Positions 41,503 to 63,855 of a stretch of DNA of 64,000 bases are shown piece by piece. The DNA is taken from contig CAXXIN010000013.1 of assembly GCA_963665275.2 (NCBI GenBank), forward strand, positions 256,001-320,000. Direction: 5' to 3'. The position numbers and the translations under genes are program-made. The stretch's first letter is position 1, and the number at the start of each line of letters is the position of its first letter. The DNA comes from Negativicutes bacterium. Its GTDB lineage: Bacteria; Bacillota; Negativicutes; UBA1444. The notes beneath the pieces are model-generated. The model saw only the letters and a list, made by a program, of their open reading frames with translations, made no database searches and had not been told where the DNA came from.

Positions 41503-42897
41503 TTATGCTTTGGGTGCGCAAGCATCCGGGTTCGTCGCACTGCAATCTTCCAGGTTCTTGCCTTTGGTCTCGGTCCCCAGAATCCCGACGGCCGCAGCCG
41601 CCAGAATAAAGCCAACCGCGACGACCGACAAGGTCATGTACAAGCCGATAAGCGGATACAGATAACCGACAACCGTCGGCGCCAGCACGCCGCCAATACG
41701 ACCCCAGGACATGGCGGTTCCCGTACCGGTTCCACGCACTTCCGTCGGGTAGTTCTCCGGTGTGTAAGCGTATACGACAGAGTATGCTCCAGCCAGGAAC
41801 AGCACTGACAGCGATCCAAACGCCAGCATGATTTCCACCGGCAGTTTTTGCGACAGCGCCCAGCCATACATCACACTGGTAATGCCGGCCAGGGTCAGAT
41901 AAACCACGATAGGCATTTTCCGGCCGACTTTATCCGCCAGATATGATCCGAAAATTCCGCTGGGAATCCAAACCAAGTTCATGATCAATACATAGCCGAT
42001 GGACGCAACCATGGAATAACCCGAGTTTTTCAACAACGTCGGCAGCCAGGTGTTCAGGCCCCAATAGCCGAACATCAGGCAAAACCATAGAATCCAGAGC
42101 ATCATCGTGCGCCGGGAGTAGTTTGGTTTGAAGAGAACGGCCATTTTATTGCCGGTTTCGGCAAAGACTTTGGGTACAGGCACAGCCACAGGCAATGTTT
42201 TGCCTGTTTCGGCTTCAATGTCTCTTTCCAGTTGGCTTAAATGTTCTTCAGCTTCCGCCGGGCTTCCTTTTACCATGTACCAACGGGGAGATTCAGGAAT
42301 CCCTTTACGCAGGAACCAGACCAACAGTGCCGGGAAAACTCCGGCAAAGAACGCACTCCGCCAGCCATATGTCGGCACCAGCAAGAGAGCAACAGCAGCA
42401 GCAGTCAAAACTCCGCCGCCCCAAAGTGCTTCCGTTAGGCCATTCAGGCGTCCACGATATTCACTGGGCATCATTTCACTGTTATAAGTAAACACAACAG
42501 GCTGTTCCGCTCCCAGCCCCAAGCCGGTGAGAAAGCGCAATACCAAGAGCATCTCATAACTATTTACAAAGCCGGTAAAGAATGTCGCAATAGAAAATGT
42601 CAGCAATGTCACTTTAAAAATCTTCAACCGACCAAATAAGTCGGCGAGGATTCCGCCCGACAGTGCTCCGCAGAACATCCCCAGGAACGAAATGCTGAAA
42701 GAAAGACCGATTTGAACAGGCGAAAGGCCGAGATCTTTTGCCAATGCCGGCATGACGAAACTCAGCAGCATGATATCGAATGCGTCAAATAGGTATCCCG
42801 CCGCCGTCAAGGAGTAGATCTTTTTGTGCACCTTGGAAAATGGCAATCGTTCCATTCGTCCAACCAGTTCTTCCATGGTCAATGTGTTTGTTGACAT
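41503..42897 (-). CDS. MFS metabolite:H+ symporter, NiaP-like (candidate nicotinate transporter)
   Basis: YLFDAFD, LADLFGR, RFLTGLGLG, PESPRW, YTPENYPTEVRGTG; directly downstream of the nicotinate genes. Confidence 0.82.
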   Translation of the reverse strand: MSTNTLTMEELVGRMERLPFSKVHKKIYSLTAAGYLFDAFDIMLLSFVMPALAKDLGLSPVQIGLSFSISFLGMFCGALSGGILADLFGRLKIFKVTLLTFSIATFFTGFVNSYEMLLVLRFLTGLGLGAEQPVVFTYNSEMMPSEYRGRLNGLTEALWGGGVLTAAAVALLLVPTYGWRSAFFAGVFPALLVWFLRKGIPESPRWYMVKGSPAEAEEHLSQLERDIEAETGKTLPVAVPVPKVFAETGNKMAVLFKPNYSRRTMMLWILWFCLMFGYWGLNTWLPTLLKNSGYSMVASIGYVLIMNLVWIPSGIFGSYLADKVGRKMPIVVYLTLAGITSVMYGWALSQKLPVEIMLAFGSLSVLFLAGAYSVVYAYTPENYPTEVRGTGTGTAMSWGRIGGVLAPTVVGYLYPLIGLYMTLSVVAVGFILAAAAVGILGTETKGKNLEDCSATNPDACAPKA

Positions 42898-43043
42898 CCT
42901 AGATAGCCTCCTTATTTACATTATGATGCAATGAGTCCTTTCAGCTGGTCCCTGTACCCCGTTCTGCTTTGCACGGATCACTCCTCTCAACGTCGTAGCA
43001 ATTGCGAAGGCGGTTTTACGACTATAGTGCTATATCTTGATGG

Positions 43044-43925
43044 CTAGAGAACTTGTTCCCAGCCGCCAAAAACTTGTCCCAGCGCGGAATCGACAGCACG
43101 GCGGATAATGGCGGGACCGGCCTGCTTTTTGTACACAGCCGAAGCGCGTTCCCCGAGCGTCGCACTGATCTCTTTTAAGGCCGCTTTGACGCAGTTGTCA
43201 CGGTTGCTATGCGTCAGGCTGCAGTTCTGCCAGATGTTTTCCGCCGTTCTGACCCGAAACGGGTTTTTCGCCACGGAACCCACGGCAATCCGGCAGTCGG
43301 TGCAGGTCATGTCCGCTTCGTCGTAGCCAACGATAGCGGCCACGCTCACCCGTGAAATGGCCAGAGATTTTCTGCGGCCCAGTTTGACGAAGGCGCTCCC
43401 GGTCTTCGGCGCCAGCGCCTTGAATGAAATCCCTGCCAATACCTCGCCAGGGGCGATATCCGTCTTGCAGATACCGAGCAAGAACTCTTCGAGTCCCAGT
43501 TCTCTTTCACCCGCTTGGGAAACAAGACGCAGTCTGGCATCCAGCGCCATCAAGGCTGGTACCGAATCGGCGGCAGGCGAACCTTTGACAATGTTGCCCC
43601 CGACAGTGCCGCGATTTCGGATCTGGGGCGATCCGACGGATTGTGCGGCCTGCGCCAGCACAAAGGCATTCTCGCGAATGATTTGCGACTCCACAATTTC
43701 GGTGAAGGTCGTGGCCGGTCCGAGGTGAATCGTGTCCCCCTCAAGTCGGACCCCCTTCATTTCAGAGAGTTTGGTAATATCCACGAGACATTCCGTCTGG
43801 TGTCCGGCGCGAATTTCCACCATCACGTCGGTCCCACCGGCTATGATCATGGCCCCGTCTTTCTTTTCGGCCAGAATGTCCAGCAGTTCAGGCATCGTCC
43901 TCGGTGCGTAATACAAGTAACTCAT
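43044..43925 (-). CDS. ndhF: Nicotinate dehydrogenase FAD subunit (xanthine dehydrogenase family)
   Basis: IAGGTD, SVGSPQIRNRGTVGGNI...SPAAD, KLGRRKSLAIS; supplies the subunit missing from ndhSLM. Confidence 0.82.
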   Translation of the reverse strand: MSYLYYAPRTMPELLDILAEKKDGAMIIAGGTDVMVEIRAGHQTECLVDITKLSEMKGVRLEGDTIHLGPATTFTEIVESQIIRENAFVLAQAAQSVGSPQIRNRGTVGGNIVKGSPAADSVPALMALDARLRLVSQAGERELGLEEFLLGICKTDIAPGEVLAGISFKALAPKTGSAFVKLGRRKSLAISRVSVAAIVGYDEADMTCTDCRIAVGSVAKNPFRVRTAENIWQNCSLTHSNRDNCVKAALKEISATLGERASAVYKKQAGPAIIRRAVDSALGQVFGGWEQVL

Positions 43926-43944
43926 AAGCAGCCTCCTTATCGGC

Positions 43945-44817
43945 CTATTTGGAAGGCAGCAGGAATTTGTCTTCGATCTCGCGTACTGCCGGCAATCCGA
44001 CCAGTTCATTGAACTGCTGGAACGGGATCATCTCGCCCATCATCGCCTGAGTTGTGCCAGTGGTCTTCAGTTCCTGCATGACGCGGGTCACTGCCTGCGC
44101 CGTAATATAGGTCGAGGATGTGGGGAAAATGACCAGAGCGTAGCCCAGTTCCTGCAGTTCCTGCGCAGTCATGAGCGGCGTGCGTCCCCCTTCGACCATG
44201 TTCGCCAACACCGGGATATTGAAGCTGGAAGTGATCAGTTTCATTTCTTCCAGGCTTTCCGGCGACTCAATGAATAGAACATCCGCTCCCGCTTCGGCAA
44301 AAGCCTTCCCACGGCGAAGCGCTTCTTCAATCCCCAGATTCGTCCGAGCATCGGTCCGGGCAATGATCACAAAATCGGGATCCTGTCGGGCTGAGACCGC
44401 CGCTTTGATTTTGCTGACCATTTCTTCCAGAGGCACTACTTGGCGACCGGTCATGTGACCGCATTTTTTCGGCGCCACTTGGTCTTCCAACTGAATGGCA
44501 GCTACTCCGGCTGCTTCATATTCCTGCACGGTACGCATTACGTTGATCACGTTGCCGAATCCGGTGTCGCCGTCGGCAATTACCGGGACATCGACCGCAG
44601 CTGCGAAATTGCGGGCCCGCATGACCATTTCGGTCATCGTCATCAGTCCGACGTCAGGGCCGCCCAGATGACTGGCCGCCTGCCCGTATCCCGTGAAATA
44701 GACCGCATCGAAACCAGCTTTGGCGACAATTTTCGCCGACAGGGCATCATGAGCACCAGGAGCTACTAGTATTTGCGGCTGAGCGAGCAGCTCTCGCAAT
44801 CTTGTTGTTTTTTTCAT
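43945..44817 (-). CDS. dml: (2R,3S)-dimethylmalate lyase (ICL/PEP-mutase family)
   Basis: PGAHDALSA, ADGDTGFG, LEDQVAPKKCGH, IARTDA, ANMVEGGRTP; pathway context. Confidence 0.85.
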   Translation of the reverse strand: MKKTTRLRELLAQPQILVAPGAHDALSAKIVAKAGFDAVYFTGYGQAASHLGGPDVGLMTMTEMVMRARNFAAAVDVPVIADGDTGFGNVINVMRTVQEYEAAGVAAIQLEDQVAPKKCGHMTGRQVVPLEEMVSKIKAAVSARQDPDFVIIARTDARTNLGIEEALRRGKAFAEAGADVLFIESPESLEEMKLITSSFNIPVLANMVEGGRTPLMTAQELQELGYALVIFPTSSTYITAQAVTRVMQELKTTGTTQAMMGEMIPFQQFNELVGLPAVREIEDKFLLPSK

Positions 44818-44835
44818 AGGTTCCACCTCTCTCGG

Positions 44836-46281
44836 CTACTTAACGCCGAAATGTTTTTTGGCAAATCGCAGGGCTGCTGTCGGATGATATTGCGCCAACA
44901 CCCCGATCGCGTAAGTCAGATAATTTCCATCCACAATAATCCTGGCATGTTTCGGCAACAGCGATATTCCCGGCCGGTTCAGCGCTGCTGCAACAATCGC
45001 TTGGGCCTCCTCCTCGGAGGAATGGGCGAAGACTCCGCCCACAGCCAGTACCACTTCGACCTGCCGCAAATCCCGTCCGATCGGAGTTCCCGGGATCACG
45101 CCCATCACCGGATCGAAATGTTCGGCGATGTAGCCGGCATGACGTTTGAGCGCCACTTCGACCGCCACTTCCGCCATTACGCGGTCCAGCTTCACTTCTA
45201 TTTCATTTTCTGCCAGATGCTCCGGGCTCGCTTCCAGCTGCGCGGCATAATCAACGACAGCCTTCTCCCCTGCCTCGCCTTCAAGTCCAGCCCGCAGGGC
45301 AATCGCTTTTTCACCGACCGCTTCCACGATGCCCCGCGCGCTGACACGCAGGCCCAAATTCCCTTCGACCGTCCGATAAGCCGGCTGCTTCTCATTGGTA
45401 AGAACCAGCCCCTTTTCTTCGATCGACAGTTCTTCCAGGTGCGGCAGTACGGAGTGGATATCTGTCGTCGCACCGCCGAGATCGACCACTACCAGCCCGC
45501 CGATCCCGTCTTCTTCCTTCGTGCCGCGTGCGATGAGCTCCGCTGCCATCAGGATGGCCCCTGGGGTGGGGACCACTTTTTTCACGCTCAATCGGTCCAG
45601 TAGTTTCGAAAGGCCCTTGGCTTTCGTGATCTGGTCGATGAAGTGTTCGTGGATTGCCTCACGCGCCGGTTTGACTTTCAATTCGTGAATCGTCGGCATG
45701 ACGTTGGGTACCCTGACTGTCTGAAATCCGGCCTCCCGCAGCAACCCGTCCACCCTCGGTTGGGCCGCCTGATTGCCTGCGACCACTACCGCCGCCTTCA
45801 CTTTGCTATCAACGATGATTTTCGCATCCGCGATCAATGCATCCGTTTCACCGCCGTCGGTCCCGCCTGCGAGCAAAATGATATCCGGGCGGATCTCGCG
45901 CAGCATCTCCAGCTTCTGTTCGGGGTGATCGTCGTAGGACATCACCTCGAGCACGCGGGCGCCGGCGCTCATGGCAACTTCTTTGGCCGCTTTGGCCGTC
46001 ACTCTGGGCATATAGCCCATCGCCACCATGCGCAGGCCCCCTGCGGCGCTGGATGCCGCATAGGTACTGTCGGCAACCAATCTTTCTCTGCCGATGCCGG
46101 CAGCAATCGCCGTCGAAGCATTCGCGAGACCGATCTCAATGTCTTCGACGGTCGTCGGCGCCTGGGCTCTGCCCAGCCAGGACAGTTCCTGTCTGTTCAT
46201 CTCGAACGCACTCGCTTTGGTAAAGGTGCTGCCCACGTCAAATACCAATAGGGTTTTCGGCTTTTCGTCCAATGTTTGCAT
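44836..46281 (-). CDS. GlmL/MutL-type B12-mutase reactivating ATPase
   Basis: DVGSTFTK, SSAAGGLRM, LLAGGTDGG, PTPGA, DLGGATTD, RTVEGNLG; two genes from mgm. Confidence 0.88.
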   Translation of the reverse strand: MQTLDEKPKTLLVFDVGSTFTKASAFEMNRQELSWLGRAQAPTTVEDIEIGLANASTAIAAGIGRERLVADSTYAASSAAGGLRMVAMGYMPRVTAKAAKEVAMSAGARVLEVMSYDDHPEQKLEMLREIRPDIILLAGGTDGGETDALIADAKIIVDSKVKAAVVVAGNQAAQPRVDGLLREAGFQTVRVPNVMPTIHELKVKPAREAIHEHFIDQITKAKGLSKLLDRLSVKKVVPTPGAILMAAELIARGTKEEDGIGGLVVVDLGGATTDIHSVLPHLEELSIEEKGLVLTNEKQPAYRTVEGNLGLRVSARGIVEAVGEKAIALRAGLEGEAGEKAVVDYAAQLEASPEHLAENEIEVKLDRVMAEVAVEVALKRHAGYIAEHFDPVMGVIPGTPIGRDLRQVEVVLAVGGVFAHSSEEEAQAIVAAALNRPGISLLPKHARIIVDGNYLTYAIGVLAQYHPTAALRFAKKHFGVK

Positions 46282-46292
46282 GAAAACGTCCC

Positions 46293-47447
46293 CTACTTTT
46301 TCTCAGGGATCACATACACCGATCCGTCCATGATCCGCCGCGCCGTGCGGGAAATCGCGGCCCGCGTGATGGCCACTTTGCCGTCAGCAAGATCCGAAGC
46401 CATTTCGATATCGATCACGCCTGCCGGATGTCCAATGCGCAACAATTTTTTCTCGCGCGGTTTGTTGATCTGTTCATACACCACCGTACCGGGGATCACC
46501 GCCGCAGAACCTGTGCACACCGTGCCGGTTCCCGCATACGTCTTGTGGATGACCTGCATGAACATCAGCCGGGAAACCACGTCGACGTCGCTGGCTTTGA
46601 TGGGATTGCCTGTGGTGAAGTCGGTATAATCCTGGGGCGGACTGACGAAAGCGATCATCGGGAAAGCCGGTACAAGTTCCAGCGCCTCAGCCGGATCTTT
46701 GGCCATTCCCATAATCACCGCGGCAGCACCGCGGATGCTCTCGAGCGTCTTCAGCAGTTCGGGGTTGGAGTTGACCTGCTGCGGTGTTTCGATCCCGGTC
46801 AGGCCGAGATCTTTGGCCCGCACGAATACCATCGGATTGGCCACATCAACCAAGCTGGCTTCAATTTTGCCAAAGCCGGGGATTTCCAGAACATCGACCG
46901 GGTTTCCGGTCGGCAGCAGCTTCTTGGTTACAGCGCCAGTCGTATCCGAATAATCCAGCATGATCATCGCGCCGGTACCCGGAACTCCGTCGCACACGCA
47001 ATCCCCCAGAACCGCAGCTTTGCCGTCGACTGTCGGCACATCGGCGATAATGAGTTTTCCGGTGTTCGTGTTATGGATGCGTACGGTGGTGATGCCTTCC
47101 TGACACCGCACCAGTCCTTCATCAATCGCGAAAGGTCCGACTGCGGAGGAAATGTTGCCGCAGTTGCCGCTGTAATCGATGTATGGTTTATTGATGCTGA
47201 CCTGACCGAAGGTATAGTCGACATCGGCATCCGGGCGGGATGAAGGGCCGATGATGGCCAGTTTGCTTGTCAGAGGGTCGGCCCCGCCCAGCCCGTCGAT
47301 CTGACGGACATCCGGGCTGCCGAATACTTTCAGGATCACTTTGTCGCGTGCAGCGTGATCGCGCGGCAGATCGTTTTCCATGAGAAACATTGCCTTACTC
47401 GTACCGCCGCGCAGAATCGCGCAGCGAATTTTTTCCATTTGGGCCAT
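46293..47447 (-). CDS. mii: 3-methylitaconate isomerase (PrpF family)
   Basis: RGGTSKA, QIDGLGGADPLTSK, GNCGNI, HKTYAGTG, RTARRIMDG. Confidence 0.88.
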   Translation of the reverse strand: MAQMEKIRCAILRGGTSKAMFLMENDLPRDHAARDKVILKVFGSPDVRQIDGLGGADPLTSKLAIIGPSSRPDADVDYTFGQVSINKPYIDYSGNCGNISSAVGPFAIDEGLVRCQEGITTVRIHNTNTGKLIIADVPTVDGKAAVLGDCVCDGVPGTGAMIMLDYSDTTGAVTKKLLPTGNPVDVLEIPGFGKIEASLVDVANPMVFVRAKDLGLTGIETPQQVNSNPELLKTLESIRGAAAVIMGMAKDPAEALELVPAFPMIAFVSPPQDYTDFTTGNPIKASDVDVVSRLMFMQVIHKTYAGTGTVCTGSAAVIPGTVVYEQINKPREKKLLRIGHPAGVIDIEMASDLADGKVAITRAAISRTARRIMDGSVYVIPEKK

Positions 47448-47448
47448 C

Positions 47449-49290: not shown

Positions 49291-49294
49291 CTTT

Positions 49295-49804
49295 CTATAT
49301 CTCCTTTGTTGCCAGCTGTCGGCGCACTTTGGCGATCAGACCGCCTGCCGCCAGGATGGCGATTACATTTTCTCCCGGTACGGTTCCCGTCAGGGTTTCC
49401 CCTGTCGGCAATTGAATTTGCGCGCTGCGGATATCCGCCGTGACAGACTCGCCATCTTTCACTTTGCCGACCAGGTCGGCCTGCAACACCGGCAGCCCGA
49501 TATTGATCGCATTACGGCGGAATATCCGCGCGAAGGATGTTGCGATGATCAGACCGACTCCGGCGTCCTTGAGCGCGAGCGGCGCCTGTTCGCGGCTTGA
49601 ACCGCAGCCGAAATTCGCTCCTGCGATGATAACATCCCCGGCTTTCACCTGCTTGGAAAAGTCGGCAATCTTGCTGCCGGCCATTGCATGATCTTTCAGC
49701 GCCTCACGCGGATAGACCATGGCATAGCCGGGTAAAATCTGGTCGGTGTCAATATTGTCTTCAAAATTCCAGACGCGGCCTGTGCATTTCAATTCATCAA
49801 CCAT
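49295..49804 (-). CDS. dmdB: 2,3-dimethylmalate dehydratase small subunit (LeuD-like)
   Basis: [35 protein letters not shown]. Confidence 0.85.
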
Positions 49805-51020: not shown

Positions 51021-51032
51021 CGCTGTTTCCCC

Positions 51033-52445: not shown

Positions 52446-52481
52446 TGGTTTTCCCTCTCCCCCTGTTCGATTGGTTCTCCC

Positions 52482-53372: not shown

Positions 53373-53381
53373 AGTATCCTC

Positions 53382-53960: not shown

Positions 53961-53984
53961 GATAAGCCCTCCTCTAAATTTTTA

Positions 53985-54818: not shown

Positions 54819-54821
54819 GAG

Positions 54822-56324
54822 TTACTCGCCTTTCTTTAACGTCGAAAGGGGTTTGATGGATTCGATGTGGCCGCCAATTTCTTCATATTTCTGACGGGTC
54901 ATTGTATATTCCACCGGCGCCACCGTCGCGGGCGTCGGCACCCAAGTAAAGGCTTTGGGAGCTACTTTTTCAACATCCACCAGGAAGTTGATTCCTCCGC
55001 CAGGGAGAATATAGGTCTGCGCGCCGCCAATCGTCAGCTTCGCCTCGCCTGCATGCACTGCTCGTGAAAGCTTGATCGGATAGGTCGTCACACCGGCCCT
55101 GGCGCTGCCTCCGGTCCCGCCGACATAGACGGCCGAAACCCGAGCTTCCTCGCAATTATCAGAGATTAAATCGACAGCGGCCTGCACTTCTTTGGTCATC
55201 GGCAATTCAACGACACTGCCGTCAGCCTGCACTTCCAGCAACGCGCCTTTTTGGCCGGTGGTTTCGGTAACCAGAATTTTCATGCCCGCTTTGGCGATTT
55301 GCATATCCACCGACTTGACGGCATCCAGCGGCTGTTCGATATGCGTGCCGCCCCAGCCATGCCCGTGTTCGCCAAAATAGCGCCCACGCGTACTTTTTCT
55401 GCCGTTGGGCACGACGCCGCTCCAAGTCATCCCGACTTCTTCCCCTGCTCGATGTTCGGACAAGAGTCCGATGACATGGTGATCGAGCACGATGGCTTCA
55501 TCTACAACTTGGCACATGGTTCGTGCGAACATTCCAACGGTCGCGCTACCACAGCCGACGCGCATTTTCTTTTCCGCCACCCCGTCGATAAGGGGCGCAT
55601 AGCCAACCTGCAGTTCCAACTTGCTGCCTTTTTCGACTTGCAGCGTTACCCGCTCCTCGTTCGCCAGCTCGACAATGGTTCGCGCAGCGGCAAATCCGTT
55701 CTTGCCGCTCAGAATATTGGCGCCACCGATGTAGATCATCTTCGATCCATATTCTTCGGTGTCCACCATGCCGACCAGTGCGCCGTCGCGGAATATCTTC
55801 GCGCCTTCTTCGCCGATATGATGATTGGCGTCGATCTTGACTTTGATACCGCTGTAACTAAGCGGCGCTTCGGTTACGACAGTCACCACATCGATGCCGT
55901 CGATGGTTTCGCCGACGATATGCGGGGCCGGACGGCAACAGGGATATGCCGTCCCGGCGCCGACAGCAGTGATCAGCGGCGTATCCGGAATCGTTCGGTC
56001 CGGAGCCGTAGCCCGGGTGTTCTCCAGTACAAGTTCCCGGTTGCGCACCAATTTGCCGTTGATATTGCTATACCGCTTGCATGCGCCCTCGAATCCGGCT
56101 TTGATTTCACACTGGACCGGGCATGAACGGCAGGAAACCGCCCCGGCGGCGACTTCCGGCTCGCGGGAGATCGCCTGGAATGGGCATACCCTGACGCAAA
56201 CGCCGCAACTGACGCAATTCGCCTGCACCACGGCCAGTTTGTCAATCACTTTGATGGCGCCGGCCGGGCAGCTTTTCACGCACAGAGTACAGGCTTTACA
56301 TGATTCTTTTTTGACAACGATCAT
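54822..56324 (-). CDS. hnr: 6-hydroxynicotinate reductase (Fe-S flavoprotein)
   Basis: Two ferredoxin CxxCxxCxxxCP motifs, CRSCPVQC...C, YPCCRPAP, TEEYGSKM, MRVGCGSAT, GGSARAGVT. Confidence 0.88.
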   Translation of the reverse strand: MIVVKKESCKACTLCVKSCPAGAIKVIDKLAVVQANCVSCGVCVRVCPFQAISREPEVAAGAVSCRSCPVQCEIKAGFEGACKRYSNINGKLVRNRELVLENTRATAPDRTIPDTPLITAVGAGTAYPCCRPAPHIVGETIDGIDVVTVVTEAPLSYSGIKVKIDANHHIGEEGAKIFRDGALVGMVDTEEYGSKMIYIGGANILSGKNGFAAARTIVELANEERVTLQVEKGSKLELQVGYAPLIDGVAEKKMRVGCGSATVGMFARTMCQVVDEAIVLDHHVIGLLSEHRAGEEVGMTWSGVVPNGRKSTRGRYFGEHGHGWGGTHIEQPLDAVKSVDMQIAKAGMKILVTETTGQKGALLEVQADGSVVELPMTKEVQAAVDLISDNCEEARVSAVYVGGTGGSARAGVTTYPIKLSRAVHAGEAKLTIGGAQTYILPGGGINFLVDVEKVAPKAFTWVPTPATVAPVEYTMTRQKYEEIGGHIESIKPLSTLKKGE

Positions 56325-56346
56325 AGATTCTTAACCTCCCGCTCGC

Positions 56347-57519
56347 CTAAGCGATCGTAACTTTTCCCACTGCAGGCGGAGTGTTGCGGCTCTTGTTCAC
56401 CTTGACCACTCCATCGACAAGCACCAACGCGACACCAGGGATGTCGCCGGCCTCGATCGCTTCGAGCGCGTTCTTGCCGACCGAACCCATTGGCGTATCC
56501 ATGATGACAATATCCGCCTCTTTACCCGGAGCGATCACACCCGTATTCAGACCATATACGCGAGCCGTGTTTCCAGTCGCCATGGCCACCGCCACCGCCG
56601 CCGGAACCTCCGACATGCTGGCAATCTGGCAGATATTCCGCAGAATTCCGAGGGGAATCACGCCGGTGCCCGAAGGTGCATCATTACCGAAAATAAGCCG
56701 GCTCAATTGTTTTTTGGCAGTTGCCTGACGGGCCACATAATCAGCCACTTTCGGATTCCCGCATTGTACGATCTCCAGTGCGATCTGCGTCTCATCTATC
56801 AGCCGGTCGACTTCCTTCAGGGAAACCGCCGTCGGTCCGCCGTTGATATGGGATACCACGTCCGGGTCGGTTTTGATCACGTCGTCCGCCGAAACGGTCG
56901 AGCTGCCCGGAATCGAAGTTCCGCCTGTATGCATCATGACTTTCATGTTGTGTTTTTTCGCCCAGGCTACCATCGGCGCCGCATCTTCTGGTTTTTTAAT
57001 GGATCCGAGACCCACTTCCCCGACGACTGTGACTCCAGCTGCCGCCATTTCGGCAAAATCAGCTTCGGTCAGGCCTTTTTCCAAAATGACCGAACCGGCA
57101 TGAACTTTCACTCCGCCCGGTTTCAAAAGCGCAAACGATTTGTGCGCCAAGATGGCCAACGCCTTCACCCCTGCCGGATCTGTCGGGCGACCCGGCGTAT
57201 GGCATTCACCGGCGGAAATCATGGAAGTGACACCACCATGAATGGAACTGTCAATGAAATCCGACATTTTTTGACGCGGCGTGTAGTCGCCGATCACCGG
57301 ATGAACGTGTGAATCAATCAGACCGGGGGTCACTGTCATGCCGCCCGCATCAATGGTTTTAAATTCTACCGAATCCTTTTTGAGAGAATCCACTAACGCC
57401 ATAGTGCCGACTGCGTCAATCTTACCGTCTTTTATGACGATAACGTCCCCTGCGATGATGGGTTGTTCCACCAGCCCTGAAACGATAGTTCCGATGTTTG
57501 TGATAACTGTTACTGCCAT
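56347..57519 (-). CDS. ena: Enamidase (amidohydrolase superfamily)
   Basis: PGLIDSHVH, ISAGE.H.PGRP, MHTGGTSIPGS, SHINGGPTA, GNDAPSGTGV. Confidence 0.88.
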   Translation of the reverse strand: MAVTVITNIGTIVSGLVEQPIIAGDVIVIKDGKIDAVGTMALVDSLKKDSVEFKTIDAGGMTVTPGLIDSHVHPVIGDYTPRQKMSDFIDSSIHGGVTSMISAGECHTPGRPTDPAGVKALAILAHKSFALLKPGGVKVHAGSVILEKGLTEADFAEMAAAGVTVVGEVGLGSIKKPEDAAPMVAWAKKHNMKVMMHTGGTSIPGSSTVSADDVIKTDPDVVSHINGGPTAVSLKEVDRLIDETQIALEIVQCGNPKVADYVARQATAKKQLSRLIFGNDAPSGTGVIPLGILRNICQIASMSEVPAAVAVAMATGNTARVYGLNTGVIAPGKEADIVIMDTPMGSVGKNALEAIEAGDIPGVALVLVDGVVKVNKSRNTPPAVGKVTIA

Positions 57520-57543
57520 ACTGATCCACTCTCCATTCTCACT

Positions 57544-58539
57544 TTAGTTTTTTGCCGCAGCAGAATCCTTATTGGCAAGCGCTTGCAGCACTCGCTCCGG
57601 CGTAATCGGCAGGGAATAGATCCTCACGCCGATCGCGTCATACACAGCGTTGGCGATGGCCGCCGCCGTAGGTATCAAAGCGGGCTCGCCGACTCCTTTT
57701 GCGCCAAAAGGCCCGGTGGGCTCAGGGTCCTCAACAATGAACGAATATATTTCAGGCGTATCAAGAGACATGGGCAACAGATAACCATCGAAATTCGGAT
57801 TGGAAATCCGGCCCTTGGACACGTTGATTTCTTCGAGCAAAGCATACCCGCTGCCCATGACTGCACCGCCCTCGATCTGCGCTTCAACCAATTTGGGATT
57901 GATAGCCCTGCCGACATCATGGGAAGCCACGATTCGCAGCACTTCGACCTTGCCTGTTTCCGTATCCACTTCCACTTCCGCCACCTGGGTGGCAAAAGCG
58001 TACGTTCCATAGGGAGATCCCTCGCCAGTAGAGGCATCCAATCCGGTTGTCGCCGGATTGAACCAGCCGTGTCCGAGCGTGAGCTTGCCCTTCATACGGC
58101 AACTCCCGAGTACTTCCTTCACCGTCATGGTCCCTGGTTTGTCGTCGACCACCACCACGCCATCGGCAAAATCAACTTCCCCGTTGGTTTTCAGCATTTC
58201 CCTGGCCTCGGCAATCGCTACCTGCTTGGCTTCTTTTGCTGCCAGGCGAGCCGCGTTGCCTGAAATGTAAGTCTGTCGGCTGGCGCTGGTCGCACCGCCT
58301 TCCGGCGTAATCATCGTGTCCGCCGAAGTGACCATCACATTCTCCGCTCCGATGCCCAGTTCTTCTGCCACAATCTGGGCGAGAACGGTATCAGACCCTT
58401 GTCCGATGTCGGCGCACCCAGCCAACAAATTGGCGGTCCCGTCATCCAGCCATTCCACGAAAGCCGCCGCCGGGTTCGGCAATCCGGTGTTGCCGACGCC
58501 ATACCACATGCAGCCGATTCCTGTGCCACGTTTCTTCAT
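57544..58539 (-). CDS. ndhM: Nicotinate dehydrogenase medium molybdopterin subunit
   Basis: MKKRG.G...MWYG.GNTGLPNPAAAFVE, DIGQGS, TSASRQT, QIEGG, GAKGVGEP. Confidence 0.88.
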   Translation of the reverse strand: MKKRGTGIGCMWYGVGNTGLPNPAAAFVEWLDDGTANLLAGCADIGQGSDTVLAQIVAEELGIGAENVMVTSADTMITPEGGATSASRQTYISGNAARLAAKEAKQVAIAEAREMLKTNGEVDFADGVVVVDDKPGTMTVKEVLGSCRMKGKLTLGHGWFNPATTGLDASTGEGSPYGTYAFATQVAEVEVDTETGKVEVLRIVASHDVGRAINPKLVEAQIEGGAVMGSGYALLEEINVSKGRISNPNFDGYLLPMSLDTPEIYSFIVEDPEPTGPFGAKGVGEPALIPTAAAIANAVYDAIGVRIYSLPITPERVLQALANKDSAAAKN

Positions 58540-59811
58540 TTACAATACCCCCGTGCGGAACATTTTTTGAGCTTCCGCGCACGCCTGTTCCAGCGTCATT
58601 CCAATCCCCACACTATGCTCCAGGACTTGGCCGGTCGCGGTTACGCTCCCCGGACGCAAAACATTCAGCCGCCGGATTTCCAATGGTGACATGCCCAATT
58701 CTTCGGCCAATATATTCATCTGCGTCTCATGTGCGAACGCCATCTGAGGCACGCCGAATCCGCGCATGGCTCCTGCCTGCGGATTGTTCGTATAGACGGC
58801 ATAGGCATCAACAAAGACATTTGGTACTTCATAGGGACCGGTCGCATGAACTGCCGCCCGGGTCAGCACCGCCGGCCCGTAGGATGCGTAAGCGCCGCTA
58901 TCGCCAACGATGTTCGCTTTCACCGCCAGCAATTTCCCCTCTGCGCTAACCCCGGTCTTATAATCAATCACATAGGGATGCCGCTTGGCTGAGGCGATCA
59001 TGGATTCTTCCCTTTGCCAGACCATCTTTACCGGACGGCCTGTCTTATAAGCCGCCAGCGCCAGGTAACATTGCACCGAAATATCCAGCTTGCCGCCGAA
59101 TCCGCCACCGGTTACCGCCTGCACAATCCGAACCTGGTTGACACCCAGCCCCAGAGTCCGCGCGACTTCTTTGCGGTCAAAGTGCACATTCTGGGTGGAA
59201 ACCCAAACCGTCACCATTTTTCCGTCATACTCGGCCAACCCGGCTTCCGGCTCTATGTAGGCATGCTCTGCGCATTGGGTGAAATATTGCCGTTCGACGA
59301 TGAACTTCGAAGCGGCGAATCCCGCCTCCACATCGCCTTTACGCAACTTGCGCAACGTCAGTATATTGGAGGACCCGTGGATTTTAACCGCACCGGCTGC
59401 CATGGCCGATTGGGTATCAAAATACGCCGGCAATTCCCGTAGCGTCACCTTCAGGTTTTTTCCCGCCGCGATCGCTATTTCTTCGGTTTCAGCCACGACC
59501 AGCGCCAACGCGTCGCCGTGACGCCGAACTTTTTCCCCTGCGAGTACCGGTTCGTCCTTTAAAATAATACCAACGCCATTGGGTCCCGGAATGTCTTTCG
59601 CGGTAAATACCGCCACTACCCCTGGAACTGCCGCCACTGCCGACACATCGATGTTTTCGATCACGGCATGCGCCAATCCGCTTTCATTACGAATCACCTT
59701 GCAGAACAGCATCCCCGGGCGCTTCATATCAGCGGCGAATAGCGCCTGCCCCGTCACTTTCGCGATCGCGTCATGCTTCAAAATCGAGCTGCCAACGCCG
59801 GTATGCGTCAT
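58540..59811 (-). CDS. ndhL: Nicotinate dehydrogenase large molybdopterin subunit
   Basis: AKVTGQA.FAAD, EHAYIEPE, GGGFGGKLD, GAYASYG, AMRGFGVPQ; ATGA overlap with ndhS. Confidence 0.88.
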   Translation of the reverse strand: MTHTGVGSSILKHDAIAKVTGQALFAADMKRPGMLFCKVIRNESGLAHAVIENIDVSAVAAVPGVVAVFTAKDIPGPNGVGIILKDEPVLAGEKVRRHGDALALVVAETEEIAIAAGKNLKVTLRELPAYFDTQSAMAAGAVKIHGSSNILTLRKLRKGDVEAGFAASKFIVERQYFTQCAEHAYIEPEAGLAEYDGKMVTVWVSTQNVHFDRKEVARTLGLGVNQVRIVQAVTGGGFGGKLDISVQCYLALAAYKTGRPVKMVWQREESMIASAKRHPYVIDYKTGVSAEGKLLAVKANIVGDSGAYASYGPAVLTRAAVHATGPYEVPNVFVDAYAVYTNNPQAGAMRGFGVPQMAFAHETQMNILAEELGMSPLEIRRLNVLRPGSVTATGQVLEHSVGIGMTLEQACAEAQKMFRTGVL

Positions 59812-60284
59812 ACGACTTCGCCTCCCTGCTTCGCGACAGCTTCCACAGCATCGACAATTTTGGAATAGCCGGTGCAACGGCAGGCGTTGCCGGAAATGGC
59901 CACCCGGATCTCTTCCCGCGACGGGGTCGGGTTTTTATCCAATAAAGCCTTCGCTGACAGCAGCATCCCCGGTGTGCAAAAACCGCATTGCACGGCGCCA
60001 TGATCTATAAAAGCCCGTTGCAGCACATGAAGTTTCTCTCCCTCAGACAAACCCTCAACCGTTAAAATGTCCGAACCGTCGATTGAAGCAGCCGGCACGA
60101 TGCACGATGCTACAGTCCGTCCATCCAGAATGACTGTGCAGGCGCCACATTCACCGATGCCACAGCCGCGTTTCGTGCCTGTCAAGCCGAGGTCGTCCCG
60201 CAGAAAATCCACCAACAGAAGCTCTGGCCGAACAGCGGTTTTAACTTCCTTCCCATTGATCATACAGGTTATTTCGACATTCAA
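59808..60284 (-). CDS. ndhS: Nicotinate dehydrogenase 2x[2Fe-2S] subunit
   Basis: GCGIGECGACTV, SC, QCGFCTPG, GNACRCTGY. Confidence 0.88.
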   Translation of the reverse strand: MNVEITCMINGKEVKTAVRPELLLVDFLRDDLGLTGTKRGCGIGECGACTVILDGRTVASCIVPAASIDGSDILTVEGLSEGEKLHVLQRAFIDHGAVQCGFCTPGMLLSAKALLDKNPTPSREEIRVAISGNACRCTGYSKIVDAVEAVAKQGGEVV

Positions 60285-60311
60285 TGCTCACACCCCCATT
60301 TTATATACCAA

Positions 60312-60328
60312 TGCAAGAGCCGTGCCAA
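60312..60328 (-). promoter_or_regulatory. Sigma-54 promoter of the nicotinate operon
   Basis: Minus strand TTGGCACGGCTCTTGCA, near-consensus. Confidence 0.9.
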
Positions 60329-60488
60329 AGTTCCGATTAAACAAAAGAAGCCCGCAAAATCAACTTGCCGGGCTCCATTGCCATTCTCATCGTTCTTTAA
60401 TTGCACGAATTCATTGCATTATTGAAACAGTCAGTTACTTTTCTGCGATCTACGTCATCCTTTTCATTGCAAAAAAGAAACGCGCATT

Positions 60489-62087
60489 TCAATTTTGCAA
60501 TATGCCGTGTTCGACCATCTTTCGCCATAGAGTAGTTGTACTAATCCCTAATTTTTTCGCTGCCAACCCTCGATTTTCCTTCTCTTCCTGCAGAATTCTT
60601 ACAATCACAGACTTTTCCGTTTCCTTCAGAATAGAGTCCAAATTCAGTTCAGCCCTGCGACCCCCACCCGAAACCTTCTCGAACTGCGAAGGCAGATGAC
60701 GTTTCTGCAGCAACCGTTCATGCGGCTCGACAATGTTCAGTGCACTTTCAATGCAGTTTTGCAATTCCCGCACGTTGCCCGGCCACTCGTGCCGAGAGAA
60801 AACATCGAGAACATCAGTCGCCACATCCTCAACGATCCGACCCAGAACACGATTATATTTTTCGAGGAAACAGCGGGCCAATTGATGAATGTCGTCATAC
60901 CGCTCCCGCAGGGCCGGCACTTTTAGCTCCACCACGTTGAGGCGATAGAAAAGGTCTTCCCGGAATTTTTTTTCTTCGACAAGCAGGCGCAAATTACGAT
61001 TCGTCGATGAAATGATCCGAATGTTGACACGAATCGGCTTGCTGCTGCCCAAGCGGGTCACTTCCTGCTCCTGCAACACTCGCAGCAAGCGGGCCTGGAG
61101 GTCCCATTCCATCTCACTGATCTCATCCAAAAAAACCGTGCCCCCATTGGCTGATTCAAAGATTCCCGCATTGCCGCCTTTTTTTGCTCCGGTAAAGGAG
61201 CCTTCCACATACCCGAACAGTGTTCCTTCGATTAGGCTTGGAGGCACCGCGCCGCAATTAATGGCAATAAACGGTTTGTCGCAGCGGGGTGAGGCGTTGT
61301 GAATCGCCTGCGCGAACAATTCCTTCCCGGTGCCGGTCTCCCCGAAAATCAAGACTGACGAAATGCCTTGCGAAACGTTGCGGGCCACCGCCTTGCAACG
61401 CTGAATGCTTTCGCTGACCCCAACAATATCGTCGAAATTATAGCGCGCATACTGAAACTTTTTGACTTCTTCAATCAGTTTATGTTTCTGCGAAACCATC
61501 ATTTCATTATTGAAACCCAAGCCGTATTGTTCTGTAATGGGAATGCGTACAGCCATGGCCCCTGGGACAGACATGGATTTCCCCACTACCGGTCGCTGCG
61601 TCTGCATGGCCTCCAAGGCCGCCTTGCTGACCTTGCCGATATATTCACCTTTTTGCACGCCAAAGGAATCGACACTCTGGAGCCTGCGCCCTTCCTGATC
61701 GAACAGTACCGCTTCGCCGCCCGCCACACGAGCAATAATCGGCAATGCTTGCGATAACGAATCCCACAGCTTCCCTTCACGCTCGATCTTTTCCGTATTG
61801 GATGCACTCAGGACATATTCGCCGATTGGCAACGCCCATGCTTCGGAGTTCGGCACAAAAGCCGAATACCCGAACGCTGGAGCGTTTTTTTCACTGGCGT
61901 CCCGCGCTAAATCGTACACCACTCCATGGTATTCCGCCAGTTCGTTGCCATGCGAATCAACCGTCCGCATGCGCTTTCCCGCTCTATCCGTCACGCTGGC
62001 ATATCCGCCCGATATTCGCGCAATCAATGGCAACGCCTTGAAAAGTTGTTCCAACAATGTTCCGTTGCGAGAGTTTTCCGTCGCCAT
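60489..62087 (-). CDS. Sigma-54 enhancer-binding protein with duplicated N-terminal sensor (candidate nicotinate activator)
   Basis: GETGTGKELFAQAIH, GSFTGA, FLDEISE, WPGNVREL, HTH AAKKLGISTTTLWRK; two N-terminal repeats. Confidence 0.9.
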   Translation of the reverse strand: MATENSRNGTLLEQLFKALPLIARISGGYASVTDRAGKRMRTVDSHGNELAEYHGVVYDLARDASEKNAPAFGYSAFVPNSEAWALPIGEYVLSASNTEKIEREGKLWDSLSQALPIIARVAGGEAVLFDQEGRRLQSVDSFGVQKGEYIGKVSKAALEAMQTQRPVVGKSMSVPGAMAVRIPITEQYGLGFNNEMMVSQKHKLIEEVKKFQYARYNFDDIVGVSESIQRCKAVARNVSQGISSVLIFGETGTGKELFAQAIHNASPRCDKPFIAINCGAVPPSLIEGTLFGYVEGSFTGAKKGGNAGIFESANGGTVFLDEISEMEWDLQARLLRVLQEQEVTRLGSSKPIRVNIRIISSTNRNLRLLVEEKKFREDLFYRLNVVELKVPALRERYDDIHQLARCFLEKYNRVLGRIVEDVATDVLDVFSRHEWPGNVRELQNCIESALNIVEPHERLLQKRHLPSQFEKVSGGGRRAELNLDSILKETEKSVIVRILQEEKENRGLAAKKLGISTTTLWRKMVEHGILQN

Positions 62088-62937: not shown

Positions 62938-62968
62938 TATAGATCCCCCCCATAGCATTTTTCAGCTT

Positions 62969-63808: not shown

Positions 63809-63855
63809 AAGTATATTGCACCTCCGAATTATTTTAACCCGCCTTTACTTTCAGT

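What the first reader, a model, noticed from the sequence alone, without database searches (positions are those of the whole stretch)
41503..62087. Complete B12-dependent nicotinate fermentation pathway as one sigma-54 operon
Seen: ndhS-L-M, ena, hnr, apbE-like, DUF1185, hgd, hmd, dmdA, dmdB, mgm, mii, GlmL-like, dml, ndhF, co-directional with tiny gaps and intact frames, then an MFS. Known: this is the Eubacterium barkeri enzyme set converting nicotinate via 6-hydroxynicotinate, 2-formylglutarate, 2-methyleneglutarate and dimethylmalate to propionate and pyruvate; the Mgm branch is rare. Inference: this Negativicute-like organism ferments niacin. The chemistry is known; the host, gene order and regulation appear new to me.
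Basis: partly seen in the sequence, partly recalled or inferred. Interest (0 to 1): 0.8.

Follow-up and report, generated by a model that had tools for sequence, protein, structure and literature searches.

The report
Sigma-54-controlled nicotinate fermentation operon
This anaerobe carries, as one tightly packed operon behind a sigma-54 promoter, the full enzyme set known from Eubacterium barkeri for fermenting vitamin B3 (nicotinate) to propionate and pyruvate; the chemistry is known and similar clusters sit in many related genomes, so it is a sound but fairly ordinary find.

Summary
On the minus strand, 17 co-directional intact genes (ndhS-ndhL-ndhM-ena-hnr-UPF0280/ApbE-like-DUF1185-hgd-hmd-dmdA-dmdB-mgm-mii-glmL-like-dml-ndhF, then an MFS transporter) run from 60284 to 41503 with overlaps or gaps of at most 36 nt (146 nt before the MFS gene). 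Six of seven proteins that could be compared with solved E. barkeri structures hit the E. barkeri enzyme first, by wide margins (NdhL, NdhM, NdhF, Ena, Hgd, Mii); NdhS does not discriminate. Hnr and Mgm relatives carry those names in public records. A consensus sigma-54 promoter (TTGGCACGGCTCTTGCA, 60312-60328) lies about 30 nt upstream of ndhS, just after a terminator-closed gene for a sigma-54 activator; rpoN is in the genome. The same gene set, the same activator and sigma-54 promoters recur in other genomes of the class: enamidase in 32 of 301 sampled genomes, full-length Mgm in 10 of 61. The newer points are a dedicated activator with a duplicated PAS-like sensor that matches no Pfam family, two conserved accessory genes of unknown role, and a neighbouring sigma-54-driven chemoreceptor gene. 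No corrin-ring genes were found, so the B12 step probably depends on salvaged cobamide. Function is inferred; no physiology or RNA data.

The parts
63856..63872 (-). Second sigma-54 promoter-like site (TTGGCATAATTCTTGCA), upstream of the chemoreceptor gene
   Evidence: context
62969..63808 (-). Soluble 279-aa methyl-accepting chemotaxis protein. Its N-terminal sensor gives only weak Cache-like hints. It is a conserved neighbour of nicotinate clusters; membership of the regulon is inferred
   Evidence: Pfam MCPsignal 5.4e-30; weak dCache/sCache hits; homologues beside or inside clusters in G012 (79%) and G020 (54%)
62269..62958 (-). Class I SAM-dependent methyltransferase, 10 nt downstream of the MCP gene; role unknown
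   Evidence: Pfam Methyltransf_25 1.3e-17; homologues near clusters in G012 67%, G020 58%, G051 61%
62175..62192 (.). Perfect 18-nt palindrome CATTTCAATATTGAAATG upstream of the activator gene; candidate autoregulatory site
   Evidence: sequence; 8-mer positions
60489..62087 (-). Sigma-54 enhancer-binding protein: duplicated PAS-like sensor (residues about 18-206), AAA+ domain with a GSFTGA loop, and a Fis-type HTH
   Evidence: Pfam Sigma54_activat 7e-66, AAA_lid_14, HTH_8; sequence; no Pfam hit for residues 1-232 at E<=10; AF2 model pLDDT 91.9; Foldseek PAS/dCache matches; internal repeat by hhalign 99.6%
60485..60500 (-). Candidate upstream activator site TTGCAAAATTGAAATG, about 170 nt upstream of the -24 element, overlapping the activator's stop codon
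   Evidence: the motif TTG[AC]AAWWWTGAAATG is also found upstream of the cluster promoters in G010 (twice) and G012 (once)
60348..60376 (-). Terminator-like hairpin followed by a U-run, closing the activator gene before the operon promoter
   Evidence: RNA fold -22.6 kcal/mol, z -2.98
60312..60328 (-). Sigma-54 promoter (-24 TTGGCAC / -12 TTGCA), about 30 nt upstream of the ndhS start
   Evidence: the identical 16-mer lies before ndhS in G012
59808..60284 (-). ndhS, [2Fe-2S] small subunit of nicotinate dehydrogenase
   Evidence: Pfam Fer2_2/Fer2; PDB 3hrd_D 1.2e-48 ranks second to 4zoh_C 2.4e-49, so it does not discriminate
58540..59811 (-). ndhL, large molybdopterin subunit (N-terminal half of a split Mo subunit)
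   Evidence: PDB 3hrd_A 8.7e-124, next 3.1e-59
57544..58539 (-). ndhM, medium molybdopterin subunit (C-terminal half)
   Evidence: PDB 3hrd_B 1.5e-103, next 7.2e-50
56347..57519 (-). ena, enamidase
   Evidence: PDB 2vun_A 4.4e-166 over the full length; the only hit at E<=1e-10
54822..56324 (-). hnr, 6-hydroxynicotinate reductase (N-terminal 2x[4Fe-4S] domain)
   Evidence: Pfam Fer4 families; 72-76% identical proteins are named 6-hydroxynicotinate reductase/hnr in Sporomusa records
53985..54818 (-). UPF0280/ApbE-like protein. Inferred role: maturation (flavinylation) of Hnr
   Evidence: NCBIfam PRK04334.1-2 1e-61, below cut-off; Pfam ApbE 3.3e-5, below cut-off; PDB 2o34 hypothetical protein 9e-9; found in 8 of 10 related clusters
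53382..53960 (-). DUF1185 / Pfam AA_synth protein, function unknown
   Evidence: Pfam 3.1e-76; PDB 2qtp 3.6e-81 and 3byq, both 'uncharacterized'; found in 10 of 10 related clusters
52482..53372 (-). hgd, 2-(hydroxymethyl)glutarate dehydrogenase
   Evidence: PDB 3cky_A 6.1e-96, next 3.2e-69
51033..52445 (-). hmd, serine-dehydratase-like 2-(hydroxymethyl)glutarate dehydratase
   Evidence: Pfam SDH_alpha 8.4e-7, NCBIfam sda_alpha 2.7e-8; position conserved in related clusters
49797..51020 (-). dmdA, dimethylmalate dehydratase large subunit (aconitase family)
   Evidence: Pfam Aconitase 2.6e-86; four other aconitase/LeuC-like paralogues at 32-42% elsewhere in the genome
49295..49804 (-). dmdB, small subunit
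   Evidence: NCBIfam TIGR02087 'LeuD/DmdB family' 166.5 bits, cut-off 108.95
47449..49290 (-). [quoted passage not shown]
   Evidence: Pfam B12-binding at residues 474-571; DAHVVG (DxHxxG) at residue 483; 70-73% identical proteins are named 2-methyleneglutarate mutase
46293..47447 (-). mii, 3-methylitaconate isomerase
   Evidence: PDB 3g7k_A 6.2e-147, next (PrpF-like) 6.1e-85
44836..46281 (-). GlmL/MutL-like protein; inferred mutase chaperone/reactivase
   Evidence: Pfam MutL 1.3e-136; NCBIfam GlmL family 319 bits, over the cut-off of 204
43945..44826 (-). dml, 2,3-dimethylmalate lyase (PEP mutase/isocitrate lyase superfamily)
   Evidence: Pfam PEP_mutase 2.2e-56; PDB best hit is the petal death protein 1.4e-74, A. 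niger dimethylmalate lyase 1.5e-57
43044..43925 (-). ndhF, FAD subunit of nicotinate dehydrogenase
   Evidence: PDB 3hrd_C 5.6e-42, next 9.3e-33; start codon
41503..42897 (-). MFS transporter of the aromatic acid/H+ symporter type; inferred nicotinate uptake
   Evidence: Pfam MFS_1 5.3e-55; NCBIfam TIGR00895 1.9e-88, below cut-off; an 86% identical paralogue lies just beyond the window end
41438..41474 (-). Intrinsic terminator (16-bp stem followed by a T-run) ending the unit
   Evidence: it is the strongest minus-strand terminator-like site in 41200-61100

Best explanation
The region is an E. barkeri-type nicotinate fermentation operon. Proposed route, with steps inferred from the established E. 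barkeri pathway (recalled from Alhapel et al. 2006, which I could not open):
- Nicotinate enters through the MFS symporter.
- It is hydroxylated to 6-hydroxynicotinate by the four-subunit Mo/FAD/[2Fe-2S] nicotinate dehydrogenase NdhSLMF, probably selenium-dependent.
- Hnr, which uses ferredoxin, reduces it to 1,4,5,6-tetrahydro-6-oxonicotinate.
- Enamidase opens the ring, giving 2-formylglutarate and ammonia.
- Hgd reduces this to 2-(hydroxymethyl)glutarate.
- Hmd dehydrates it to 2-methyleneglutarate.
- Adenosylcobalamin-dependent Mgm, serviced by the GlmL-like protein, rearranges it to 3-methylitaconate.
- Mii isomerises it to dimethylmaleate.
- DmdAB hydrates it to dimethylmalate.
- Dml cleaves that to propionate and pyruvate.
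All 17 genes are transcribed as one unit of about 18.9 kb, from a sigma-54 promoter at 60312-60328 to the terminator at 41438-41474. Transcription is switched on by the adjacent enhancer-binding protein. Its duplicated PAS-like N-terminal module most likely binds nicotinate or an early intermediate. It probably acts from TTGCAAAATTGAAATG-type sites about 170 nt upstream. The UPF0280/ApbE-like gene probably matures Hnr. The DUF1185 gene is a conserved part of the cluster with an unknown role. Shown here: gene content, orthology of six proteins to solved E. barkeri enzymes, the promoter sequence, rpoN in the genome, and conservation in relatives. Inferred: substrate, effector, binding sites, single transcript and roles of the accessory genes.
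For: Domain content of all 17 genes fits the pathway. Best PDB hit is the E. barkeri enzyme with a large margin for NdhL (8.7e-124 vs 3.1e-59), NdhM (1.5e-103 vs 7.2e-50), NdhF (5.6e-42 vs 9.3e-33), Ena (4.4e-166, only hit), Hgd (6.1e-96 vs 3.2e-69) and Mii (6.2e-147 vs 6.1e-85). The Mo subunit is split into L and M pieces of 445 (about 423 from the likely start) and 331 aa, as in 3hrd (425 and 330 aa). The other five Mo-hydroxylase large subunits in the genome are unsplit. Mgm carries DAHVVG, and relatives at 70-73% identity are named 2-methyleneglutarate mutase. Hnr relatives at 72-76% are named 6-hydroxynicotinate reductase. Promoter: TTGGCACGGCTCTTGCA; 4 such sites against 0.04 expected. 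rpoN is present. The activator has a sigma-54 interaction domain, a GSFTGA loop and an HTH. In all 5 related genomes where the flank was covered (G012, G010, G051, G020, G041), an orthologous activator (47-64% identity) sits beside the cluster. At least one TGGCA-N7-TGCA site lies directly upstream of cluster genes in each. The activator's sensor module has 143 homologues. By my reading of the tables, 21 of their contig lengths also appear in the Mgm hit list, an indirect sign of co-location. No convincing minus-strand terminator lies inside the operon, and a strong one follows the MFS gene. selD (with an in-frame TGA) and yqeB are present, as is a PduO-type adenosyltransferase.
Against: There is no growth, enzyme or transcript evidence; the one RNA run found holds only 0.05 of the sampled words. 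E. barkeri Hnr, Hmd, Mgm, DmdAB and Dml could not be compared directly, because no solved structures exist and no E. barkeri genome was reachable. Their assignment rests on family membership, names on relatives and position. NdhS does not discriminate. The best solved relative of Dml is the broad-specificity petal death protein, not a dimethylmalate lyase. Hmd matches the serine dehydratase family only weakly (8.4e-7). cbiD, CbiC and CobS were not found in the 92.6%-complete genome, so Mgm may depend on external corrinoid. The effector and the binding sites are guesses. The shared motif was seen only within one family (G000, G010, G012), where common descent could explain it. The two Moorella loci show no sigma-54 site or activator in the stretch covered.
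Confidence: 0.8

Rival explanations
1. The cluster degrades a different N-heterocyclic or branched dicarboxylic substrate (for example another pyridine carboxylate) through the same enzyme families, and nicotinate is not its physiological substrate.
For: Substrate specificity was not tested. NdhS, Dml, DmdAB and Hmd are assigned only at family level. The genome has five further Mo hydroxylases, which suggests broad heterocycle metabolism.
Against: Six enzymes spread along the whole route are each closest to the E. barkeri nicotinate enzyme by 9 to more than 60 orders of magnitude in E-value. The complete nine-step set is kept together in 10 related genomes.
Confidence: 0.07
2. The genes are not one sigma-54 transcript. 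The sigma-54 site drives only the first genes, or is inactive, and internal sigma-70 promoters (and a separate promoter for the MFS gene) do the rest.
For: Four minus-strand sigma-70-like sites lie inside the operon. A 146-nt gap precedes the MFS gene. In G051, G020 and G041 the same genes are split into two or three units, each with its own sigma-54 site. No RNA data are available.
Against: Sigma-70-like sites are no more frequent than in shuffles (15 against 11.0, sd 3.8, both strands). Gaps between genes are at most 36 nt or are overlaps. No terminator-like structure with a long stem lies on the minus strand inside the operon. No second sigma-54 site lies inside it except a poor match within the hmd coding sequence (51658-51673).
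Confidence: 0.15
3. The operon is carried but is a functional dead end in this organism. Without corrin biosynthesis the Mgm step cannot run, so only the upper pathway (to 2-methyleneglutarate, releasing ammonia) operates.
For: cbiD, CbiC and CobS were not found in the genome.
Against: The genome is only 92.6% complete, and B12 genes usually cluster, so one missing contig could hide them. A PduO-type adenosyltransferase is present, as is a second B12-binding mutase subunit (C7:211990-212379). Both fit cobamide salvage. All lower-pathway genes are intact.
Confidence: 0.1

Closest known systems
Eubacterium barkeri nicotinate fermentation gene cluster (Alhapel et al. 2006, PNAS; recalled, the paper could not be opened)
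   Same: The same nine enzyme activities are encoded by the same protein families. These include the unusual split NdhL/NdhM molybdopterin subunit, enamidase, the B12-dependent Mgm, Mii, and the LeuCD-like and isocitrate-lyase-like final pair. Six proteins are each closest to the solved E. barkeri enzyme.
   Different: The host is a Negativicutes-type organism; the nearest named records are uncultured Veillonellaceae MAGs. Here ndhF lies at the far end of the operon, apart from ndhSLM. From memory the E. barkeri order differs and its regulator is not a sigma-54 activator; neither point could be checked. The window's cluster also carries UPF0280/ApbE-like and DUF1185 genes. I could not check whether E. 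barkeri has them.
Unstudied nicotinate clusters in sequenced Sporomusa, Anaeroselena, Desulfosporosinus, Desulfitobacterium, Dehalobacter, Pelotomaculum and Moorella genomes
   Same: Mgm is 70-79% and Hnr 65-83% identical. The full gene set, including UPF0280, DUF1185 and glmL-like, is shared. The same activator family is present, and sigma-54 sites lie before cluster genes in 5 of 5 Negativicutes genomes examined.
   Different: Gene order and the number of transcription units vary: one unit here and in G012 and G010, two or three in G051, G020 and G041. In Moorella the order is ndhF-S-L-M-ena-hnr-...-dml-dmdAB. This window's operon is a mosaic of two relatives' versions.
Sigma-54 catabolic regulons of Clostridia (Nie et al. 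2019, BMC Genomics, PMC6615313; term search only)
   Same: An EBP gene lies next to a -24/-12 promoter driving a catabolic operon. The window holds two more such units, for CoA-transferase/acyl-CoA dehydrogenase operons.
   Different: That paper contains none of the words nicotin*, niacin, xanthine, molybd*, methyleneglutarate or Negativicutes. The sensor module here matches no Pfam family.

Membership tests
E. barkeri-type nicotinate fermentation cluster | Nicotinate dehydrogenase with a split molybdopterin subunit (NdhL + NdhM) plus NdhS and NdhF | tested here: met
   3hrd_A 8.7e-124, 3hrd_B 1.5e-103 and 3hrd_C 5.6e-42 are each the top PDB hit. NdhS has the right family but does not discriminate. 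It is the only split paralogue of six in the genome.
E. barkeri-type nicotinate fermentation cluster | Enamidase orthologue | tested here: met
   2vun_A 4.4e-166, residues 1-384 against 1-380.
E. barkeri-type nicotinate fermentation cluster | 6-hydroxynicotinate reductase orthologue | tested here: inconclusive
   A 500-aa protein with an N-terminal 2x[4Fe-4S] domain. Relatives at 72-76% identity are named Hnr. An Atlas cluster of that name scores only 0.84. No direct comparison with E. barkeri Hnr was possible.
E. barkeri-type nicotinate fermentation cluster | 2-(hydroxymethyl)glutarate dehydrogenase and dehydratase | tested here: met
   Hgd: 3cky_A 6.1e-96. Hmd is supported at family level only (SDH_alpha 8.4e-7) and by its conserved position.
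E. barkeri-type nicotinate fermentation cluster | B12-dependent 2-methyleneglutarate mutase with a DxHxxG base-off/His-on motif, followed by 3-methylitaconate isomerase | tested here: met
   B12-binding domain; DAHVVG at residue 483; named relatives; Mii 3g7k_A 6.2e-147. E. barkeri Mgm itself was not compared.
E. barkeri-type nicotinate fermentation cluster | Dimethylmalate dehydratase (LeuCD-like) and dimethylmalate lyase (isocitrate lyase family) | tested here: inconclusive
   The families are right (TIGR02087 'LeuD/DmdB' is over its cut-off). The genes are paralogues distinct from other copies in the genome. Specificity is not shown, and the best solved relative of Dml is the petal death protein.
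E. barkeri-type nicotinate fermentation cluster | Nicotinate is converted to propionate, pyruvate/acetate and ammonia | not testable with these tools
   No physiology or usable RNA data.
Sigma-54-dependent operon | -24 GG / -12 GC promoter with canonical spacing, upstream of the first gene | tested here: met
   TTGGCACGGCTCTTGCA at 60312-60328; 4 sites observed against 0.04 expected; conserved in relatives.
Sigma-54-dependent operon | rpoN in the genome, and a cognate EBP with an AAA+ sigma-54 interaction domain, GAFTGA-type loop and HTH | tested here: met
   Sigma54_DBD 5.3e-57 on C19; Sigma54_activat 7e-66 and HTH_8; GSFTGA and the Walker A motif GETGTGKE in the sequence.
Sigma-54-dependent operon | Upstream activator sites bound by the EBP | tested here: inconclusive
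   The motif TTG[AC]AAWWWTGAAATG lies upstream of the promoter in G000, G010 (twice) and G012, all in one family. No binding data.
Selenium-dependent molybdenum hydroxylase | SelD and YqeB-type maturation genes in the genome; labile Se at the Mo site | tested here: inconclusive
   selD 1e-117 with an in-frame TGA; yqeB 1.3e-109, but it lies next to another hydroxylase on C6. Se content is not testable.

The most novel reading that the evidence does not exclude
The adjacent activator founds an undescribed family of sigma-54 enhancer-binding proteins. Its duplicated PAS-like sensor, which matches no Pfam family, senses nicotinate or 6-hydroxynicotinate. The family governs nicotinate fermentation across Negativicutes and Peptococcaceae-type Bacillota. 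Its regulon would also include two so far unassigned pathway components: DUF1185, and a UPF0280/ApbE-like flavin transferase for Hnr. It would further include a soluble chemoreceptor, giving coordinated taxis towards vitamin B3 and its fermentation, in an organism that itself must scavenge vitamin B12.
Probability: 0.35. Interest if true: 0.55.

Novelty: new member of a known kind. Interest (0 to 1): 0.35.

Why it matters
Anaerobic breakdown of vitamin B3 has been worked out biochemically in one organism only, as far as I recall and as far as my searches showed. This locus, with its relatives, indicates that the complete pathway is a recurrent trait of part of the Negativicutes and of other anaerobic Bacillota: enamidase was found in 32 of 301 sampled genomes of the class. 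That bears on vitamin turnover and cross-feeding in anaerobic communities. Here a B3 degrader appears to depend on B12 made by others. The locus also supplies testable candidates for open details. These are a dedicated sigma-54 activator with an unclassified sensor, a probable maturation factor for the covalent flavin of Hnr, and a conserved DUF1185 protein that has two solved structures but no known function.

Tried and rejected
- **E. barkeri paper.** I tried to open Alhapel et al. 2006 by DOI, PMC id and PubMed id; it is not held. E. barkeri gene order and regulator are therefore recalled, not checked.
- **Shared sensor in MCP and activator.** I tested whether the chemoreceptor's N-terminal domain is the same sensor as the activator's. 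BLASTP gave E 0.21 and hhalign gave probability below 6%. The idea is rejected at sequence level.
- **Atlas search of the activator sensor.** It gave only leads at 0.82 (Diacid_rec, PocR, GAF_PdtaS), which I did not use as evidence.
- **Atlas search of Hnr.** The top clusters are ferredoxin-domain proteins with automatic 'sulfite reductase' names. A '6-hydroxynicotinate reductase' cluster scores 0.84, a lead only.
- **Expression data.** It found one RNA run with a 0.05 share. I did not lay reads, because no informative RNA run existed.
- **Earlier scan notes.** None fit this place.
- **Genome-collection scan.** An alignment query would have reached further, and E. barkeri's genome was not reached.
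- **Extent of the regulon upstream.** No sigma-54 site occurs in the next 18 kb beyond the window, and after a second MFS gene the genes there are unrelated to the pathway.

Full report
**Observation.** Every long ORF between 41503 and 62114 lies on the minus strand. Read 5' to 3' on that strand, the Pfam and NCBIfam scans give this order:
- a sigma-54 enhancer-binding protein (EBP)
- a [2Fe-2S] subunit
- two halves of a molybdopterin subunit
- an amidohydrolase
- a 500-aa protein with an N-terminal 2x[4Fe-4S] domain
- a UPF0280 protein (PRK04334; ApbE at 3.3e-5, below cut-off)
- an AA_synth/DUF1185 protein
- a 3-hydroxyisobutyrate-dehydrogenase-family enzyme
- a protein weakly similar to serine dehydratase
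- aconitase-family large and small subunits
- a 613-aa protein with a C-terminal B12-binding domain
- a PrpF-family isomerase
- a GlmL/MutL-family protein
- a PEP-mutase/isocitrate-lyase-family lyase
- an FAD subunit
- an MFS transporter

Frames are intact. With the likely start codons (ndhL ATG 59811, ndhF ATG 43925, EBP ATG 62087), neighbouring genes overlap or are at most 36 nt apart, except for 146 nt before the MFS gene.

**Is it the E. barkeri set?** Seven E. barkeri proteins have solved structures, so the window's proteins could be compared with them against all other PDB chains.
- NdhL: 3hrd_A at 8.7e-124, next hit 3.1e-59.
- NdhM: 3hrd_B at 1.5e-103, next 7.2e-50.
- NdhF: 3hrd_C at 5.6e-42, next 9.3e-33.
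- Enamidase: 2vun_A at 4.4e-166, the only hit at E<=1e-10.
- Hgd: 3cky_A at 6.1e-96, next 3.2e-69.
- Mii: 3g7k_A at 6.2e-147, against 6.1e-85 for the best PrpF-type protein.
- NdhS: 3hrd_D is a close second (1.2e-48 against 2.4e-49), so it is uninformative.

The split of the Mo subunit into L and M pieces mirrors 3hrd. It is unique among the six Mo-hydroxylase large subunits in this genome. Mgm has the DxHxxG motif (DAHVVG at residue 483), and proteins 70-73% identical are named 2-methyleneglutarate mutase in Sporomusa, Pelotomaculum and Thermanaeromonas records. Hnr relatives at 72-76% identity are named 6-hydroxynicotinate reductase or hnr.

Hmd, DmdAB and Dml are supported only by family, by position, and by being paralogues distinct from other copies in the genome. 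The best solved relative of Dml is the petal death protein (1.4e-74); the Aspergillus dimethylmalate lyase scores 1.5e-57. I could not compare these five with E. barkeri directly.

**Regulation.** TTGGCACGGCTCTTGCA lies at 60312-60328, about 30 nt upstream of the ndhS start. The pattern TTGGCA-N6-TTGCA occurs four times in the window against 0.04 expected. All four sites are intergenic and on the coding strand. Three lie directly downstream of an EBP gene (18100, 36690, 60312), and the fourth lies upstream of the chemoreceptor gene (63856).

The EBP gene ends at 60489 and is followed by a hairpin with a U-run (-22.6 kcal/mol, z -2.98), so it is a separate unit. The strongest minus-strand terminator in 41200-61100 follows the MFS gene (16-bp stem, 41438-41474). 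Nothing comparable lies inside the operon, and sigma-70-like sites are at background level. rpoN is present. The EBP has the sigma-54 interaction domain, a GSFTGA loop and a Fis-type HTH. One sigma-54 transcript of about 18.9 kb is the simplest reading, but no RNA data exist to show it.

**The activator's sensor.** Residues 1-232 match no Pfam family even at E<=10. A search with residues 1-222 found 143 homologues, all EBPs of about 520-550 aa. They come from Sporomusa, Anaeroselena, Dehalobacter, Desulfosporosinus, Pelotomaculum, Tepidanaerobacter and many metagenome contigs. By my reading of the two tables, 21 contig lengths occur in both this list and the Mgm list. That is an indirect sign that the two genes share contigs.

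An AlphaFold model built on 47 sequences is confident (pLDDT 91.9). It shows two helix-plus-five-strand modules. Foldseek matches tandem PAS and double-Cache sensors (PctD, PpsR, MmoS, FixL, DhaR N-domain) with probability near 1 but low TM-scores of 0.23-0.33. The two halves are an internal duplication (hhalign 99.6%, E 1.2e-24, 40% identity). The effector is unknown. Nicotinate or 6-hydroxynicotinate is the obvious guess.

**Relatives.** The nearest named records are uncultured Veillonellaceae MAGs with 95-96% Mgm identity.
- Full-length Mgm occurs in 10 of 61 genomes sampled around G000. In the others only B12-binding domains match (49 genomes) or nothing does (2 genomes).
- An enamidase homologue at E<=1e-80 occurs in 32 of 301 genomes of the class, or 14 of 93 genera. 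It is concentrated in a few families and was not found in the three largest families sampled (0 of 66, 0 of 62, 0 of 45).
- tblastn of the window's proteins on 10 related genomes shows the whole set kept together, with DUF1185 in 10 of 10 and UPF0280 in 8 of 10. In the other two, the stretches examined hold no hnr or ndh genes either, and the contigs end close by.
- In the 5 genomes where the upstream flank was covered, an orthologous EBP (47-64% identity) is adjacent, and sigma-54 sites lie directly before cluster genes. G012 and G010 have one such site, G020 two, G051 three and G041 one in its partial contig.
- The two Moorella loci have a different order and show no EBP or sigma-54 site in the part covered.

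A motif, TTG[AC]AAWWWTGAAATG, lies upstream of the promoter in G000, G010 (twice) and G012. A related perfect palindrome lies upstream of the EBP gene (62175-62192). These are candidate binding sites only.

**Cofactors.** selD (with an in-frame TGA) and yqeB are present, which fits a selenium-dependent hydroxylase. However, yqeB lies next to a different hydroxylase. cbiD, CbiC and CobS were not found in the 92.6%-complete genome, while a PduO-type adenosyltransferase is present. The B12 step therefore probably relies on salvaged cobamide.

**Comparison and novelty.** The chemistry is the known E. barkeri pathway, which I recall from Alhapel et al. 2006 because the paper could not be opened. 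The host class, the operon layout and the sigma-54 control are not described in any paper found by my searches. The sigma-54 regulon survey of Clostridiales contains none of the relevant words. Public genome records already name the Hnr and Mgm orthologues, and the cluster is common in parts of the class. I therefore rate it a new member of a known kind, interest 0.35. What is worth following up is the activator family with its unclassified sensor, the DUF1185 and UPF0280 genes, and the linked chemoreceptor.

Noticed in passing
window 62269-63872 (-): A soluble 279-aa MCP and a SAM methyltransferase form a two-gene unit behind their own sigma-54 promoter-like site (TTGGCATAATTCTTGCA), immediately upstream of the activator gene. 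Homologues lie beside or inside nicotinate clusters in G012 (MCP 79%, MTase 67%) and G020 (54%, 58%), and the MTase lies near the cluster in G051 (61%, also behind a sigma-54 site). This could mean niacin taxis. The MCP sensor is not homologous to the activator's sensor.
   Followed up: partly
L027:1-1350 (-) plus window 63950-64000: A second MFS transporter, 86% identical to the one that ends the operon, lies just beyond the window end, so the locus is flanked by paralogous transporters. No sigma-54 site occurs in the next 18 kb.
   Followed up: partly
window 43945-44826 versus L001, L002, L019/L020: The operon is a mosaic. In the closest relatives (G007, G004), glmL is followed directly by ndhF with no dml, and their best dml homologue (70%) lies on another contig. 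The window's dml is 92% identical to that of G012. The block hgd to glmL is 85-96% identical to G007/G004 but only 55-72% to G012, while ndhS to DUF1185 is 83-92% identical to G012. This suggests recombination between cluster variants.
   Followed up: partly
window 18100-20154 and 36690-38344 (-): Two further EBP gene + sigma-54 promoter + operon units lie in the window. They drive CoA-transferase / acyl-CoA dehydrogenase / enoyl-CoA hydratase genes (14056-18089) and CoA-transferase III / acyl-CoA dehydrogenase genes (34233-36743). Sigma-54 control of catabolic operons seems routine in this genome.
   Followed up: partly
G000 whole genome: cbiD, CbiC and CobS were not found, although the genome encodes Mgm, another B12-binding mutase subunit (C7:211990-212379) and a PduO-type adenosyltransferase. 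At 92.6% completeness, the organism is a probable cobamide auxotroph.
   Followed up: partly
G000:C6:73372-77644 and four other places: The genome holds five further unsplit molybdenum hydroxylase large-subunit genes. One lies beside the yqeB maturation gene, and selD has an in-frame TGA.
   Followed up: no
window 3140-4210 (-), 20515-27019 (-): A PocR-domain MCP, two MalT-like LuxR-family regulators of about 840 aa, and a GGDEF/HD-domain protein lie elsewhere in the window.
   Followed up: no
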